Shown one piece after another: positions 13,380-20,050 of a stretch of DNA of 64,000 bases. The DNA comes from a virus. Where the stretch lies: the IMG/VR virus record IMGVR_UViG_3300034069_002149, positions 27,650 through 91,649 of that record, one strand, 5' to 3'. Numbering within the stretch: position 1 is the first letter of the stretch; each line of letters opens with the position of its first letter. The translations under genes and the position numbers were made by a program. Under the pieces are notes generated by a model. It saw only the letters and a list, made by a program, of their open reading frames with translations, was not told where the DNA came from and made no database searches.

Positions 13380-15400
13380 GATTTTATTTTCCGCTATGCA
13401 TGGCGGGGTATGACGGCTATACTTTGGGAATGCTGATTGGTCGCGTTCACGTCTCTTCGCTGTTCTCATCCGCCTCGCACTGCGATGGGGAAAATGGGCG
13501 CGCATGCGTTGGCGACGACCTGGAGATTTCCAGATCGCCCAGGTTCTTTCTCCAGGAGGAAGGATCAGACCAGCTCGGAGCCGATGTCGGCGTGGGTCAC
13601 GTGGTCACGATCCGGATTGGCGTGCCTGATGCGGGTGTGTGCCGTGTACCGGTGACTCGGGTCAGACGGGTGCCTGACGGATGCGTGAATGATCCGATCC
13701 ATGTTCCCCAGTCTGACGGCGACGCAATCTCCGACGAGGTCGGGTACGATGGCTCCGTGGATGGCGATGACTCCCTGGTCGGCCCGCGCGCATTGGGTCC
13801 GGAGGGCATACGAGGTGGTCGGGTCCGGAGCGAGTTTTGGGATACGAGGGGTGAGTGGGTCAAAGTCCCACGAGTCCTCAATTCCCAAAATCCTATTTTT
13901 CCACGAAACCCACAGACTTTCCGACACGGCATATCCCCCCTCGTTTCCGAACTCGGATTTTTTGCCGGGGAGATTACACCGCAATATCGCCTCGCGAAAC
14001 GATACCCAGATCAAACGATGGTAAGATATCGCACGTTTATCGCGCAAAGCCCGAAACTGTCACATGTCGGGATAATGTCGCCTAACGATGCGGTAAACCC
14101 CGACCCATCGGCATTTGGCTAAACGAATGGCTCAAATGCGAACCTATGGCATGCAAGGCAAATGTCGCCCAACGACACAGCACACAGGCATGTGCCAACC
14201 CTTCCCATATCGCGCCGCATTAGCGGGACATGTGCCGCACATTCTCCAGACCTATCGCCCACATGTCGCCGGTATTTCTGACGTATCTCCCACACATGCC
14301 GGCGACCTGTCGCTTAACGATAGCTCAAATGCAAATCTCACCTGGGAAGCAACCCAAGCTCACCAATCCCGCCAATCCGCCAGACCAGCGGCACACCTGC
14401 TCAGGCTCATCACATCCCCTGATCAGACCAGCACCCACAGGCACCCATAGCGCCAGACCAACCCATTCCAGCCACACACAAGCCAGTCCCATCCAATCCC
14501 AAAATTTCCAAATCCCCGCCTTGTTCCTCCCAGATATCCCGTAATCCAGCCTAACCCTTGCCGCAGGCCATACCGCCCAACCGCACAAGCCCTACCAGCA
14601 CACTCCCCATAGCCTCACAGGCACATCACACACAGCACCCATAGACCCACTACAGCAGCACCCATACACACGAACCCTCCCCTGTGCTCCTATACACGAC
14701 ACACACCCATACCCTCGTCACACAGCACCCAATGGGCACCATAAGCACGCCCAACCATGTCCCGTACATGCGAGTAGCGTCATAACGCTTCGCACAATGC
14801 ACCATTGAGCCAACTATCCACTAAACACACATCCCCCATATACCCGTTACCAATGCAACCATACCTAACCACAGCAAACCAAATCGTACGCAATTCAAGC
14901 TAATTGTACTCTCAATGCCGCGCTAATAACTCAATCATTCCAAACACTTGCGAGGTAGGTTTTGGGGATTGGTCATATTTTGGGGTTATAGTATTACTAT
15001 TCACCCGTCTGCCGCTCGCCCATACAAAAGAGCCACACCCACACCACACGATGCCCCTAGAAGCTCGTTTAAGCCTCTCTGAGTGGCTTCTAACGCTTCG
15101 CCCTATCCGCATATGCTGGAAACGACACAGCGCATTGTACGAGCCTTAAAACGGCTAGTGTCTCCTCCGACCATTGTCGTATGACCAGCATCGCTATATC
15201 AGGTCGTATATAACGGTAGGCACAAAGCTACACGCCAGACGGGAAAGCATGGCGTGAAGCCAGACCTGTTGTTCTCCCAAGAGATTTGACACTTTCTCAA
15301 CCGGAAACCCTGTCTAGGCCGCTGGATTTTGGCATATTGGCCCATTTAGTGCAGGTATGGCGCAACCGCTGGTATGAGCCAAAGCACACGCCAGACATGC
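13380..15400. other. About 2 kb non-coding tract with G-rich to C/A-rich skew switch and short repeated motifs
   Basis: No ORF with SD or normal codon bias. G-rich 13.4-13.9 kb, very G-poor 14.3-14.9 kb, repeated ACATGTCG/ATGTCGC 14.06-14.31 kb. Confidence 0.6.
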
Positions 15401-15436
15401 AAAAACCCTCCGGAGGTGATCCGGAGGGTTCATTTT
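15401..15436 (-). terminator. Intrinsic terminator (AAAACCCTCCGGAGGTGATCCGGAGGGTT)
   Basis: Long inverted repeat just downstream of the 15466-15720 gene. Confidence 0.75.
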
Positions 15437-15465
15437 AGGGGTATTCTGACGTATTTCGACCGTAT

Positions 15466-16488
15466 TTAGTTCGACTTTATGAAGAAGTCAGTATCATCCG
15501 TAACGTCTTCTAGGTCTCTGACCAGCACCATACCCGCATGCGCTGGCGCGATAGTGGTACAAGCAAAGTCCATCTTGGTGATATCAACCGCATTGTTGAA
15601 TGTCTCTGTCATGGTCTGGCATGCCGCCGCACTGCCGTATTCATGACCACCCATGTAGGACAGGGTAACGGTATGGTTGGGGTTGTAGACAAGCCAGACC
15701 ATGAAAAAGATTTTGCCCATGTCAGATACCTTTCCGGATAATCAGGCGCACAAGGCGGGTTGCGGAAATGTAGTTCAGGCGCACCTTGCGCGGGTAACCG
15801 GGAAAGAACGCCATGGGGTTGCGCCGCATGGGTTGGAACCGGGAACGGGTGCCAAATGACAGACGGATATCATCCATGTCAGGAACCTTTCATGTTAGAG
15901 AGAAATTCGACGCAAGCTTTATCCATCTCCCGTGAAGCCTCACGTTCATCCGGATTGAATGGCATTTGATATTGATTGTGCAGGTACCTATCCATGACAA
16001 AGCGTTGGAAGGCACCCGTGCGGAAACTCTCCGGAAACCGAGTGAATTTAGCTAAATCACTCTCGATAACGCCGTCAATCATGCGGGAATGGTCGCTAAA
16101 AACTATCCTGGTATTGTCGATAAATTTAGCGGCTATCACCTGCCCATGTGACTGATACAGGCAACCCGTGTTCCAGATGTGAAACATTTTAGATACCCTT
16201 GTGAGAGAGTGTTTCACGTGAAGCACTGTTGCCAGCGCTTCACGTGCCTTGCTGGTGTCAGGAATTGAACAGGTTCAGGTCACCCGCACGGAAACCAGAC
16301 AGGATATCCAGCAAATCCTTTCCGCTGTAGAGGTGCGGCGCAAACTGCCTGTCAGGGAACCAACCCTTGTTGAACGTCAACCGCACGGAACCGCTAACCG
16401 GGAAAGCGTTGGGGTTGCGGGGAATGCAGCGGCAAGGCAGGAAGGAGGAGGAGACCATAACAGAGGCATCAACAGAGAACTTGCGCAT
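15466..16488 (-). CDS. Three hypothetical proteins: 15466-15720, 15879-16187, 16258-16488
   Basis: Leader motif at 16200 and 16503/16511 directly precedes two starts. Confidence 0.6.
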
Positions 16489-16534
16489 GATTTTAGCTTC
16501 CTTGTGAGAGTGTGAGAGAGTGAAGACCAGAGAC

Positions 16535-17071
16535 TTAAGACCAGAGGAATTTTAGGACTGCCATACCGTCAAACCCCAACCCTTCCGCAACAATCGCGGT
16601 GATTAGGGCTAAAGCAGGACTAAATTTAGTGGAGATTGCAACCAAGCTCAGGCCAATGGCGCAGGCAATAAGGCTTCTCATGTGTCTAATCCTTTCGTTA
16701 GCGGTAAATGACTTCCCAAAATGTCAGATTGGTCATGTAGGCAAGTATCAGCGTTGGGGTTGGCAGAATGATCACAGCGGCAATGATGAGGAAGATAGCC
16801 TCTTTGATGAGCTTTCTCATGTGCTCAACCCTTCACTTTAAGATCATAGTAGATTGTGACCAGCAATGCGCCGCATGCGGCACCCACAATCAAGACAAAG
16901 CCTAGTGTTTCATACATGTGCCGTGTATCCCTGATAGACTGAAACGGTTGAATATTCACGCTTTGGTGGATTAGTTGGCCTGAAGTCTTCCGCTGTGCTG
17001 TGCCCATGTGTGAGAGCTAGAACATGAAACACAACCCTAAGCACAGCACAGGCAACCTTTACCTTGTGCAT
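16535..17071 (-). CDS. Four tandem small hydrophobic ORFs: 16910-17071 (53 aa), 16825-16917 (30 aa), 16698-16820 (40 aa), 16535-16681 (48 aa)
   Basis: Hand translated. Abutting or overlapping stop-start junctions, SD-like GGGA/AAGG(A) upstream of three, each with a TM or signal-like stretch. Confidence 0.6.
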
Positions 17072-18415: not shown

Positions 18416-18439
18416 TACCGTGTTTCCCTATGTGAGAGA

Positions 18440-18700
18440 GTTAGGGGATACAGTCTCAAGTCTGAAACTGTATCCTGTAAGTCTCTCCCTAGTGGAACCG
18501 TCCAGATTGACGGTTCCCTATCTTTGCTAAAGCCTCTTGTTTCCGCTCCCCTGTCCTTTCTCCATTCTCTGGTGATGTGCCAGAGAAGAAAGGGAGCGTT
18601 CCCGTAAGGCTGATATTCAGTTGTCAAAGAACCCGTTCCCCCTAGGGGGAAAGCGTTGGGGAGGTTCCCCGCCGCCGCCGTCAACTCCGTCTTAACTGTC
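18440..18700 (-). ncRNA. Candidate structured RNA or long structured 5' leader
   Basis: Four perfect stems in about 210 nt directly downstream of a strong promoter (see findings). Confidence 0.4.
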
Positions 18701-18745
18701 CTCAGATTATATTTTGGTGCATGCACCGTCAATAACTTTTTTCAT
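18700..18745 (-). promoter_or_regulatory. Near-consensus sigma70 promoter (TTGACG...TATAAT) with GGTGCATGCACC in the spacer
   Basis: Minus strand reads GTTATTGACGGTGCATGCACCAAAATATAATCT. Palindrome at 18716-18727, A-tract UP-like element upstream. Confidence 0.75.
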
Positions 18746-19079
18746 CCCCTTCAAACTTTTTTCCGGCGACATGGCTAAGGTTATGATTTTGCTCGCTTTT
18801 TCAGCCTAACTTTTTTCTGGAAACGGTCGTTTTCCGTCTGGAATTTATTTTTACGCTCCCTTTCAAGGCTGATTTTTCCGTCTGGCAAGGTGCCGCTGAT
18901 GGGCGGTTTCCCGTAAAGCACCCTTCCCAGGTGAGATGTGGGTTTTTCTCAAATTGCTTCTTTTCCTGGAAAGCGTTTTTGTTTTTCCTAAAATCCCGTC
19001 CAAATCCGCGGTTGTTCAGAAAGGCACCTTTCTCCAACCGCTCCCTTGGAAGGGTGCCTTTCCAGAGGTGCCCGTTTTA

Positions 19080-20050
19080 GGGGTCATATATCCGCCTTCT
19101 ATGCCCTACCCTTATTTGCGCCTTTCCCTGCCCTACCCTGCCCATGGGCACCCATGGGCCATGGTCCCTAGAAGGGTGCCCTATGGGCGTACCCTGCCTA
19201 TGGGTGCGGGTCTATACGGTACCCTGTCCATGGGCACCCTACAGGCTATCCCCTATACAGGGTGCCTTTCTGCCCTACACAGGCACCCTCTATAATGTCC
19301 CTTTGAGCCTATAGCATGGCCCTACATGCTGGCATACCAGTACCCTAGGGTAGGGTCGTTTCTGTGGATAACTCATGTAGGGCCATGCTGTAGGCCATAG
19401 CATGGATTTTTCACCCATGCGTTCTGTGAGGGTACCCGCTACCCTTGCCTAGGCTTTTCCAGAGGTGCATGCACAGGCTTTATATGGGCGTGTAGGGCTA
19501 TCTCTGAAACGTATAATTTTCTTTCCTATGCGTATACTGCATGGCTATGTGGCATGGTTATTGACTGCTCTATGGTGGTACTGTGGTACTCATTAGCACC
19601 CTACTATGTACCATACCCTGTATATACCACCCTTATACAGGGTACATGTATGTATTAAATCTCTTTTATATAAACGATCTATATCTCAAATGTCCCCTAT
19701 GTAGGGTGCCCACTACACAGTATGCATACGATATGTACCCTATATATCGCAGGTATCCATGGGGTATGTATGGCACATGCATGGTGTAGTTATATCTAAT
19801 GCATACTATATCGCATGGTATGTATGGTACATATACTATGTATGTATAGTGTATTGTATCTATGTGTATGCGATATGCATATCATGTATCGTATTGTTAT
19901 GTGATTTATATTTATGAAATGATTTTATTTATTATATTAAATGCGATGAGTTCGTGATGAGATGTATGTTAAATGTTTTGCATATCGTTTGCGAATGCGG
20001 ATTAAATATCGCCTAGCGACCTAGCCCACTTGACCATAACGATAGTGGTA
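19080..20050. other. Non-coding low-complexity tract at the strand-divergence point (candidate genome end or origin)
   Basis: CCC(T/A)ATGGG and GGCACCC/GGGTGCC repeats 19.1-19.46 kb, then alternating AT-rich (TATG/TATA/ATGCAT) 19.5-20.0 kb. Confidence 0.55.

What the first reader, a model, noticed from the sequence alone, without database searches (positions are those of the whole stretch)
15200..19600. Multi-kb gene block that almost completely avoids TCG/CGA while keeping other CG contexts
Seen: by hand I found no TCG or CGA between 17323 and 18766 (about 1.44 kb) and only about 10 between 16141 and 19380. Dozens of CCG/ACG/GCG/CGC/CGG/CGT remain there, and flanking DNA typically has several TCG/CGA per 60 nt. 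GATC is also scarce. The block shares the leader motif and operator with the rest of the arm, so it is not simply foreign. Established: first-entering DNA of some phages (T5 first-step-transfer DNA, T7 left end) is depleted of restriction targets. Inference: this is the first-injected segment, purged of targets for a host defence recognising TCG/CGA-containing motifs, until anti-defence genes are expressed.
Basis: partly seen in the sequence, partly recalled or inferred. Interest (0 to 1): 0.8.

Follow-up and report, generated by a model that had tools for sequence, protein, structure and literature searches.

The report
Trinucleotide-free early block in a phage
A 5-6 kb stretch at the head of this phage's early genes has been almost completely cleared of the three-letter word TCG/CGA (and of GANTC) by natural selection, in this phage and in seven distant relatives, which points to a DNA-attacking activity that reads a three-base motif and to a segment that must survive it unprotected.

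Summary
Window 17320-18767 is the longest TCG/CGA-free gap of the 143-kb genome (1447 bp; median gap 19 bp). Shuffling synonymous codons predicts 75±7 TCG/CGA in the block's genes; 16 are seen. Seven relatives whose 339-aa marker protein is only 43-64% identical keep the same purge (0-9 seen, 48-69 expected), while their flanks are normal. Codon choice depends on context: NTY codons end in C 63% of the time, but 5% before a G. So this is selection on DNA, not GC content, amino acids or foreign origin.

New findings:
- The block also lacks GANTC (1 in 34 kb pooled) and CCCAG/CTGGG.
- The whole 21-kb leftward early arm is depleted of those two motifs but not of TCG/CGA.
- The block is bracketed in all relatives by conserved TCG-N5-CGA repeat sites.
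- The phage encodes DpdA, two DNA methyltransferases, and ArdC- and Lar-like proteins.
- GATC scarcity is secondary.

Best reading (about 0.5): DNA exposed first, as in T5 or T7, is purged of targets of DNA-directed attack.

The parts
19600..20060 (.). Proximal boundary. An AT-rich segment (GC about 0.37) holds four GCGAYAT copies (19750, 19814, 19870, 20012). One full TCG-N5-CGA site reads GGTCGCTAGGCGATATTTAATC on the minus strand, at about 20000-20025. TCG/CGA density steps from about 40 per kb to about 0 here.
   Evidence: conserved in all seven relatives
18750..19600 (.). Repeat-rich non-coding region inside the purged block. It holds a cluster of GGGTGCC/GGCACCC iteron-like repeats, many short inverted repeats, and one perfect DnaA box, TTATCCACA, at 19363-19371 (minus strand).
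   Evidence: DnaA box conserved in 6 of 7 relatives
18690..18750 (-). Candidate sigma-70-type promoter (TTGACG ... TATAAT). The 12-bp palindrome GGTGCATGCACC (18716-18727) lies in its spacer. The same palindrome occurs at four further promoter-like places of the arm.
   Evidence: The simple promoter scan did not list it, because the spacer is about 15 nt.
18440..18690 (-). Structured leader between the promoter and the first gene, with several hairpins.
   Evidence: I2, I9; first-stage note e1-5360377, not tested further
17321..18766 (.). Core gap with no TCG or CGA at all.
18185..18415 (-). First gene of the operon, 76 aa, no family match. Preceded by the CTCTCACA leader.
17128..18147 (-). 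Gene of a 339-aa protein, used as the marker of the block. It has a disordered N-terminus with ALDASD repeats, a small beta/alpha domain, a 60-residue charged helix and a C-terminal helix-plus-hairpin domain. It has 24 homologues at 43-81% identity, all from metagenomes. Function unknown.
   Evidence: (DUF7788, below cut-off)
15466..17071 (-). Seven or eight small genes: 53/60 aa (overlapping alternatives), 40 and 48 aa (hydrophobic), 76, 102, 51 and 84 aa. All lack family matches. Pairs of 30-aa and about 40-aa mini-genes follow the marker gene in most relatives.
15401..15436 (.). Hairpin CCCTCCGGA-5 nt-TCCGGAGGG flanked by an A-run and a T-run. It is a likely two-way intrinsic terminator that ends the operon.
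   Evidence: read; not listed by the scan
14321..15400 (.). Gene-free tract, C/A-rich on the plus strand, with an intermediate TCG/CGA density of about 15 per kb.
   Evidence: first-stage note e1-5360379
13990..14320 (-). Distal boundary. An array of TCG-N5-CGA sites with consensus GTCG(T/C)TnnGCGAYATTT, at 14002, 14088, 14175 and 14320, plus six GCGAYAT copies. These are the genome's only four matches to TCGT[TA]NNGCGA (a looser relative, TCGCTAGGCGA, stands at the proximal boundary, 20019). TCG/CGA density jumps to 7-9 per 100 bp.
   Evidence: N5 spacing 9.5 per kb in the arrays against 0.46 per kb in flanks, pooled over seven genomes
1..13300 (-). Rest of the leftward early arm, which runs on to about 3.1 kb before the window. 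TCG/CGA is normal. GANTC (O/E 0.16), CCCAG/CTGGG (0.33) and GCCCC/GGGGC (0.18) are depleted. It holds an ArdC-like gene (2391-3428), a UvrD-like helicase (6803-8371) and a DUF4942 methyltransferase (runs off the window at 918).

Best explanation
The block (window about 14.0-20.0 kb) is a discrete, ancestral immediate-early DNA domain. It holds a control region, one leftward operon of about ten small genes, and a gene-free tail. Conserved TCG-N5-CGA repeat sites bracket it.

Strong, continuing selection on the DNA itself keeps it free of TCG/CGA, GANTC and CCCAG/CTGGG. The 21-kb early arm behind it is kept poor in GANTC and CCCAG/CTGGG only.

The most likely reason is exposure order. This DNA is in the cell, and must work, before the phage's protective functions act. 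Every target of a DNA-cutting or DNA-marking activity in it is therefore costly. This is the logic of T5 first-step-transfer DNA and of the T7 leading end.

Functions that neutralise the TCG/CGA-directed activity would be encoded in the block. Functions against the GANTC- and CCCAG-directed ones would be encoded further along the arm (ArdC-like protein, methyltransferase).

Shown: the purge, its selection, its conservation, its nesting and its brackets. Inferred: the entry or exposure order, and that the agent cuts DNA. Open: whether the TCG/CGA reader belongs to the host or to the phage.
For: - Purge beyond composition.
- The same purge around the marker gene in seven relatives at 43-64% protein identity: 0-9 seen against 48-69 expected (z -7 to -10), with normal flanks.
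- Context-dependent synonymous choice: NTY codons end in C at 63%, but 5% before a G (p 8e-67). NNY codons end in C at 6% before GAN against 44% before GBN (p 5e-38). There is no such effect in flanks.
- The purge also covers non-transcribed DNA upstream of the promoter and is strand-symmetric, so it acts on DNA, not on mRNA or codons.
- Further purged motifs: GANTC 1 against 86 expected in 34 kb of pooled blocks, and 0 against 28.8 in coding DNA; CCCAG/CTGGG 1 against 24.9.
- Nesting, as O/E in block / early arm / rest: GANTC 0.00 / 0.16 / 0.43-0.55; CCCAG 0.00 / 0.33 / 0.78-0.98; TCG/CGA 0.24 / 1.04 / 0.89-0.93. The same order holds pooled over the relatives.
- There is a sharp step at an AT-rich segment on the promoter side, and the operon points away from it.
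- A conserved, repeat-rich, gene-free distal tract resembles the T5 injection-stop region described in 10.1101/866236.
- The arm carries ArdC-like and methyltransferase genes (a Lar-like gene lies elsewhere in the window), and the block shares the arm's leader and operator.
- Weak hints of a separate assembly unit: one relative's contig is almost exactly the block, another ends at the distal array, and in one soil run block contigs have depth 19-25 against 9.8 for the left flank.
Against: - No direct evidence on termini, coverage, entry order or timing of expression. All runs were assembled contigs.
- Several relatives' contigs read straight through both boundaries. The record is classed as a provirus, 91% complete.
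- No restriction system with a TCG specificity is known to me. A host enzyme that cuts a 3-mer would need to protect about 40 sites per kb of its own DNA.
- All relatives purge the same 3-mer, which fits a factor of the phage lineage at least as well as a host defence.
- No homologues of T5 A1, A2 or dmp, and no family match for any block protein.
- T5's own first-step-transfer DNA shows no comparable short-word purge; its lowest 3-mer O/E is 0.78.
- The seven relatives are not independent, so pooled p-values overstate significance.
Confidence: 0.5

Rival explanations
1. The block is a modification-free zone. The purged words are the target motifs of the phage's own DNA-modifying enzymes: DpdA inserting a 7-deazaguanine at CGA, and a CcrM-like methyltransferase at GANTC. 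The block must stay unmodified. Possible reasons are that modified bases hinder host RNA polymerase or DNA-binding proteins on the parental template, or that they attract modification-dependent nucleases.
For: - The phage encodes DpdA above the Pfam cut-off, with 347 homologues (E<=0.001), of which those that carry a source name are called DpdA family.
- It also encodes a QueD-like protein, a ParB_N-N6_N4 methyltransferase and a DUF4942 methyltransferase.
- Known phage DpdA enzymes have 2-3-base motifs: GA and GGC in CAjan (PMC7544227), GA in iggy (PMC10484667).
- The number of purged motifs roughly matches the number of modifying enzymes.
- The same 3-mer is purged in all relatives.
Against: - No datum links DpdA or either methyltransferase to TCG/CGA.
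- The purge covers non-transcribed DNA, so a transcription-only cost does not explain it.
- A near-complete purge (0 in 1974 coding nt of L005) implies a large cost per site.
- The version with modification-dependent nucleases still needs early or isolated exposure, so it merges with the best explanation.
- I did not test whether DpdA co-occurs with the block on the relatives' contigs.
Confidence: 0.17
2. The block is a replication-origin or plasmid-type replicon module: AT-rich segment, DnaA box, iterons, initiator gene, then a second array of sites. Its odd word usage would follow from constraints of origin function or of a protein that loads at the bracket sites and must not bind inside.
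For: - The layout of AT-rich segment, conserved perfect DnaA box, GGGTGCC/GGCACCC cluster, adjacent 339-aa gene and a distal array of TCG-N5-CGA sites recalls iteron replicons such as P1 oriR-repA-incA (own knowledge).
- There is a weak match of the 339-aa protein to PHROG 942, 'replication initiation protein' (E 0.008).
- Weak winged-helix-like fold rows appear in the PDB search.
Against: - An origin does not explain a purge of a 3-mer through 3 kb of coding DNA.
- It does not explain the purge of GANTC and CCCAG across the whole 21-kb arm.
- The family and fold matches are all below significance.
- An origin inside first-exposed DNA is compatible with the best explanation rather than a replacement for it.
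Confidence: 0.1
3. TCG is the protospacer-adjacent motif of the CRISPR-Cas type common in the host clade. The DNA that enters first, which is the main source of new spacers and the best target, has been cleared of it on both strands.
For: - Three-base, strand-symmetric avoidance confined to one block is what motif avoidance of this kind would look like.
- Spacer capture from the first-injected end is established for some systems (own knowledge).
Against: - No CRISPR type with a TCG motif is known to me.
- Selection per site is weak for such motifs, whereas the purge here is almost complete.
- It does not explain GANTC, a palindromic methylation/restriction word.
- I did not search for spacers or identify a host.
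Confidence: 0.05
4. The block is recently acquired foreign DNA, or its word usage simply follows from lower GC, amino-acid content and codon usage.
For: GC is 0.46-0.53 against 0.585. GC3 is 0.57 against 0.75, and T-ending codons are more frequent.
Against: - A shuffle that keeps proteins and the block's own codon usage still predicts 4-5 times more TCG/CGA.
- Codon choice depends on the next base.
- The block sits at the same place in seven diverged relatives.
- It shares the leader and operator with the arm.
Confidence: 0.02

Closest known systems
Bacteriophage T5 first-step-transfer DNA (left terminal repeat with pre-early genes and the injection stop signal)
   Same: - A block of a few kb with small, mostly unassigned genes under host-type promoters.
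- It is followed by a conserved, gene-free, repeat-rich tract (T5: 1662 bp, 10.1101/866236; here 14.0-15.4 kb).
- DnaA box(es) lie in the non-coding DNA.
- T5 first-step DNA is classically free of EcoRI sites (own knowledge).
- How T5 DNA escapes the A1-dependent degradation of host DNA is still open (10.64898/2026.04.02.716235).
   Different: - No homologues of A1, A2 or dmp.
- Terminal-repeat status and two-step entry are not shown.
- T5's block shows no short-word purge.
- Here a trinucleotide, not a 6-bp site, is excluded, and the brackets are TCG-N5-CGA sites rather than paired DnaA boxes.
T7/T3 leading end: slow, transcription-assisted genome entry with the anti-restriction gene 0.3 (Ocr) expressed first
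   Same: - Promoters near a boundary point inward, with the operon reading away from the candidate end.
- Anti-restriction-type genes lie further along the same arm.
- Motif avoidance is graded by distance or time class.
- T7's terminal repeat is flanked by arrays of short repeats (own knowledge).
   Different: A siphovirus-type 143-kb genome with lambda-like tail genes. No T7-like RNA polymerase or Ocr homologue was detected. Entry mode is unknown.
Restriction-site (palindrome) avoidance in phage genomes, and GANTC under-representation linked to CcrM/HinfI-type enzymes in Alphaproteobacteria
   Same: - Depletion beyond codon expectation of short words.
- GANTC is under-represented genome-wide (O/E 0.43-0.55) and absent from the block.
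- The named DpdA homologues are from Alphaproteobacteria, which hints at such a host.
   Different: - Avoidance here is regional and nested, not genome-wide.
- The main purged word is a non-palindromic 3-mer pair with no known cognate enzyme.
- Other palindromes (CATG, TGCA, CTAG, GTAC) are not avoided.
DpdA-type 7-deazaguanine DNA modification of phages (CAjan, iggy, 9g)
   Same: A DpdA homologue and a QueD-like gene are present. Known DpdA enzymes read 2-3-base motifs (PMC7544227, PMC10484667).
   Different: No modification data exist for this phage. The papers read do not report regional exclusion of a modification motif. The full preQ0 pathway was not detected.

Membership tests
T5-type first-step-transfer DNA | Lies in a long direct terminal repeat at the end of virion DNA that enters first | not testable with these tools
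   Only assembled contigs of public runs were available. Weak hints only: contig L022 is almost exactly the block, L007 ends at the distal array, and depth in run X2 is 19-25 against 9.8.
T5-type first-step-transfer DNA | Distal conserved, non-coding, repeat-rich stop region | tested here: met
   The gene-free tract 14.0-15.4 kb carries an array of TCG-N5-CGA sites conserved in seven relatives. Its function as a stop signal is not tested.
T5-type first-step-transfer DNA | Pre-early genes A1, A2 and dmp | tested here: not met
   No Pfam or PHROG match of any block protein.
Restriction-target avoidance | Word depleted beyond base, dinucleotide, amino-acid and codon expectation | tested here: met
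Restriction-target avoidance | Depleted word equals the recognition sequence of a known enzyme of the host | tested here: inconclusive
   GANTC matches CcrM/HinfI-type specificity (own knowledge). For TCG/CGA and CCCAG I know of no cognate enzyme. The host is not identified.
Horizontally acquired genomic island | Patchy presence among relatives, foreign regulatory signals | tested here: not met
   Present at the same place in all seven relatives. It shares the CTCTCACA leader and the GGTGCATGCACC palindrome with the arm.
DpdA 7-deazaguanine DNA modification system | DpdA transglycosylase gene | tested here: met
   PF23859, 45.4 bits against a cut-off of 27, at genome 11096-12175. Homologues are named DpdA family.
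DpdA 7-deazaguanine DNA modification system | preQ0 synthesis genes (FolE, QueD, QueE, QueC) or reliance on the host | tested here: inconclusive
   Only a QueD-like gene was found (PF01242). No other pathway family appeared among 128 proteins scanned.
DpdA 7-deazaguanine DNA modification system | Modified G in a defined sequence motif of virion DNA | not testable with these tools
   Needs LC-MS or single-molecule sequencing.
Iteron-type replicon | Initiator protein of a known Rep family next to its iterons | tested here: inconclusive
   Repeats, an AT-rich segment and a DnaA box are present. The adjacent 339-aa protein has only sub-threshold matches.

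The most novel reading that the evidence does not exclude
TCG/CGA is the recognition element of an undescribed DNA-directed activity with trinucleotide specificity. It would be either an immune nuclease common to the host clade, or the phage's own host-genome-destroying or 7-deazaguanine-linked system. The block would be a T5-like first-entering segment, possibly a terminal repeat delimited by the TCG-N5-CGA arrays, that survives because it simply lacks the word. 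That would give a sequence-level answer to how first-step DNA escapes early DNA destruction.
Probability: 0.2. Interest if true: 0.9.

Novelty: new variant of a known kind. Interest (0 to 1): 0.8.

Why it matters
Regional avoidance of restriction sites in first-entering phage DNA is textbook for T5 and T7. I am not aware of a described case with these three features: a near-total, clade-wide exclusion of a trinucleotide from a multi-kb block, nested inside a larger arm that excludes other words, and bracketed by arrays built from that same trinucleotide.

- It predicts a reader of a 3-base DNA motif, which could be a defence, a phage weapon or a base-exchange enzyme. Recoding the block would be a direct way to find it.
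- It marks out, from sequence alone, the likely order in which a new 143-kb phage clade exposes its genome.
- It gives a set of about ten unassigned immediate-early genes as candidates for the matching counter-measure.
- It also bears on an open T5 question: how first-step DNA escapes the early destruction of DNA in the cell.

Tried and rejected
- tRNA or RNA-gene cluster as the cause of the ORF-poor low-GC region: no tRNA and no Rfam family.
- Close phage relatives in GenBank phages: none by DNA. The AAA protein matched only two records of one crAss-like phage at 26% identity. TerL matches Xp12-, PaMx28- and Rhodobacter-type siphophages at 36-45% identity, which does not tell the packaging mode.
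- Relatives in IMG/VR by the marker protein: none. The portal gave four fragments that do not reach the block. The metagenome scan added one short contig.
- Function of the 339-aa protein: AlphaFold2 mean pLDDT 70, no PDB match at E<=0.001, and no usable Atlas hit.
- RNA evidence: no RNA holder was listed for the stretch.
- Laying contigs: this cannot show ends or copy number. One joint in run X3 skips 13869-21369 but has only 24 letters on one side and no sequence similarity at the two places, so I treat it as noise.
- GATC as an independently avoided word: rejected.
- TCGA as the true target: residual TCG is followed by A about as often as in the flanks, and the excess over Markov expectation is an artefact of tiny expectations.
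- DnaA-box arrays as in the T5 stop region: only one box, though it is conserved.
- A short-word purge in T5's own first-step DNA: none.
- Earlier notes of this scan on other DNA: none found.
- Contig ends as evidence for termini: inconsistent among relatives.

Full report
**Setting.** The window is bases 27650-91649 of a single 143,333-bp virus record. IMG/VR classes the record as a provirus, 91% complete, and it comes from a plant metagenome. My gene calls and family scans describe a siphovirus-type genome.
- It has lambda-like tail genes, a DUF4055 portal and an intein-bearing terminase.
- It encodes RTX proteins, DpdA, a QueD-like protein and two DNA methyltransferases.
- It encodes ArdC-like and Lar-like proteins.
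- Genes from about 3.1 kb before the window up to window 18415 run leftward (the early arm). Genes from 20164 run rightward. The finding lies at the point of divergence.

**The observation.**
There is no TCG/CGA from 17320 to 18767, the longest such gap in the genome (median gap 19 bp), and there are 10 between 16141 and 19380.
- It is the genome's only low-GC island.
- TCG/CGA is by far the most depleted trinucleotide after correction for dinucleotides (O/E 0.16-0.25). ACG, CCG and GCG are at or above expectation.
It expects 74.6 +/- 6.8 and finds 16 (z -8.2). Genes of the adjoining arm show 429 against 399.
- TTG/CAA, TCA/TGA and GCA/TGC are in excess (the first two are one transition from TCG/CGA).
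- GATC is scarce mainly because half of the flank GATC sites adjoin CG.

**What lies there.**
- The block genes are on the minus strand, each behind the leader CTCTCACA...AGG...ATG that also precedes most genes of the arm.
- The operon starts behind a promoter-like site whose spacer holds the palindrome GGTGCATGCACC. That palindrome recurs at four other promoter-like places of the arm.
- The operon ends at a hairpin terminator at 15401-15436.
- None of the ten products matches Pfam or PHROGs above threshold.
- The 339-aa product folds into two small domains joined by a long helix, without a significant structural match.

**Relatives.**
- The 339-aa protein has 24 homologues at 43-81% identity, all metagenomic.
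- I fetched seven relatives with DNA. In every one, the 3.5-5.5 kb around the homologue is lower in GC and almost free of TCG/CGA, while both flanks carry 40-50 per kb.
- Synonymous shuffles give 0, 8, 2, 5, 9 and 1 observed against 48-69 expected (z -7 to -10), with no depletion in flank genes.
- Pooled codon contexts show the mechanism of avoidance. NTY codons end in C 63% of the time, but 5% when the next codon starts with G. NNY codons before GAN end in C 6% of the time, against 44% before GBN. Flanks show no such dependence.
- A milder general avoidance of CpG at codon junctions also exists (44% against 68%; CpG O/E 0.64-0.69 against 1.03).
- The purge is therefore maintained by selection on the DNA sequence in a whole clade. 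It is not recent foreign DNA and not a composition effect.

**Boundaries.**
- On the promoter side the purge starts abruptly behind a conserved AT-rich segment. That segment holds several GCGAYAT copies and one full site, GGTCGCTAGrCGAyATTTAATC.
- On the far side, after a gene-free tract, it ends at an array of three to five sites with consensus GTCG(T/C)TnnGCGAYATTT. There TCG/CGA density jumps to 7-9 per 100 bp.
- The spacing TCG-N5-CGA is 20 times more frequent in these arrays than in the flanks.
- In this genome the four matches to TCGT[TA]NNGCGA all lie at 14002-14320; the one full site of the proximal boundary (20019, TCGCTAGGCGA) is a looser relative found only with TCG-N5-CGAYA.
- Between the AT-rich segment and the promoter, all relatives carry a cluster of GGGTGCC/GGCACCC repeats. 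Six of seven carry a perfect DnaA box.

**Further purged words and nesting.**
- GANTC occurs once in 34 kb of pooled blocks, against 86 expected from dinucleotides. It occurs 0 times in 15 kb of block coding DNA, against 28.8 by synonymous shuffle.
- CCCAG/CTGGG (1 against 24.9) and GCCCC/GGGGC (0 against 19) are also missing.
- Region by region, in this genome:

| Word | Block | Early arm | Rest of genome |
|---|---|---|---|
| TCG/CGA (O/E) | 0.24 | 1.04 | 0.89-0.93 |
| GANTC (O/E) | 0.00 | 0.16 | 0.43-0.55 |
| CCCAG/CTGGG (O/E) | 0.00 | 0.33 | 0.78-0.98 |

- The same order (block lowest, then arm, then the other side) holds pooled over the relatives.
- The arm-wide depletion ends where the leftward genes end.

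**Interpretation.**
- A strand-symmetric purge that includes non-transcribed DNA and reaches zero over kilobases means that each site is costly at the DNA level.
- The nesting by transcription class means the cost depends on when, or how long, a segment is exposed without protection. That is the logic of T5 first-step DNA and of the T7 leading end.
- The anatomy fits. There is a sharp boundary at an AT-rich segment and promoters pointing away from it. A conserved repeat-rich gene-free tail recalls the T5 stop region (10.1101/866236). Anti-restriction-type genes lie further along the arm.
- Entry order and termini remain untested. Only assembled contigs were available, and they gave weak hints at most.
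- The identity of the TCG/CGA reader also remains untested. No known restriction system fits. The phage's own DpdA belongs to an enzyme family with 2-3-base motifs (PMC7544227, PMC10484667). That supports either a rival reading (a modification-free zone, 0.17) or a phage-borne weapon against which the block is self-immune.
- How T5 DNA escapes A1-dependent degradation is itself unresolved (10.64898/2026.04.02.716235). T5's own block shows no such purge.
- An origin or replicon reading explains the non-coding anatomy but not the purge (0.1).
- Avoidance of a CRISPR adjacent motif (0.05) and foreign origin (0.02) are unlikely.

**Limits.**
- The relatives share ancestry, so pooled p-values are inflated; the per-genome tests are the sounder evidence.
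- Block limits in relatives were set from the profiles themselves.
- Gene calls outside the tool-provided ones are my own simple caller.
- The host is unknown. The named DpdA homologues point to Alphaproteobacteria.

Noticed in passing
window 1-18438 and genome-wide: The leader CTCTCACA, followed by an AGG-type ribosome site and ATG, precedes about 25 minus-strand genes of the early arm and almost none elsewhere (26 copies on that strand against 7 on the other).
   Followed up: partly
window 1-20000 (early arm) against the rest of G000: GANTC is under-represented genome-wide (O/E 0.43-0.55 by synonymous shuffle) and far more so in the early arm (0.16). CCCAG/CTGGG and GCCCC/GGGGC are depleted only in the arm and the block.
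   Followed up: yes
G000 11096-12175 (-), 23893-24447 (+), 20190-21539 (+), 27071-28567 (-): The phage encodes DpdA, a QueD-like protein, a ParB_N-N6_N4 methyltransferase fusion and a DUF4942 methyltransferase. This implies modified virion DNA. The other preQ0 pathway genes were not detected.
   Followed up: partly
window 19363-19371 and the same place in L005, L008, L017, L019, L021: A perfect DnaA box inside the context GAGTTATCCACAGAAAC is conserved in 6 of 7 relatives, between the AT-rich segment and the promoter.
   Followed up: partly
window 18900-19720; relatives at -1600 to -400 from the marker gene: A cluster of 6-18 GGGTGCC/GGCACCC repeats in both orientations is conserved in all relatives. 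It may be iterons or operator sites.
   Followed up: partly
window 15790-15815, 16395-16425, 18630-18660: A GGGAAAGCGTTGGGG-like element recurs three times. In two genes it encodes a shared peptide (RNPNAFP / RNPMAFFP). In the leader it lies in a palindrome.
   Followed up: no
window 14330-14900 (minus-strand sense) and relatives: The gene-free tail is G/T-rich in the sense direction, with repeated GGTCTGG and GCTGGT words that look somewhat like Chi sequences. Their orientation and meaning were not examined.
   Followed up: no
run X3 laid on window 12500-21500: One contig of a soil relative appears to join 13869 to 21369, skipping the whole block. Only 24 letters lie on one side and there is no similarity between the two places, so it is probably spurious.
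   Followed up: partly
L008 7790-8266 and 20920 onward: One relative carries an HNH_3 endonuclease gene just upstream of the block and an IS605-type TnpB gene in its early arm.
   Followed up: no
relatives L005, L008, L017, L021 at about +1200 to +1450 from the marker gene: A pair of mini-genes of 30 and about 40 codons directly follows the marker gene in most relatives. In the window these are the 40-aa and 48-aa hydrophobic genes at 16535-16820.
   Followed up: no
L024 (phage T5) 1-9140: In T5 first-step DNA, CGA/TCG happens to be the lowest trinucleotide by Markov O/E, but only mildly so (0.78 against 1.00 in the next 40 kb).
   Followed up: partly
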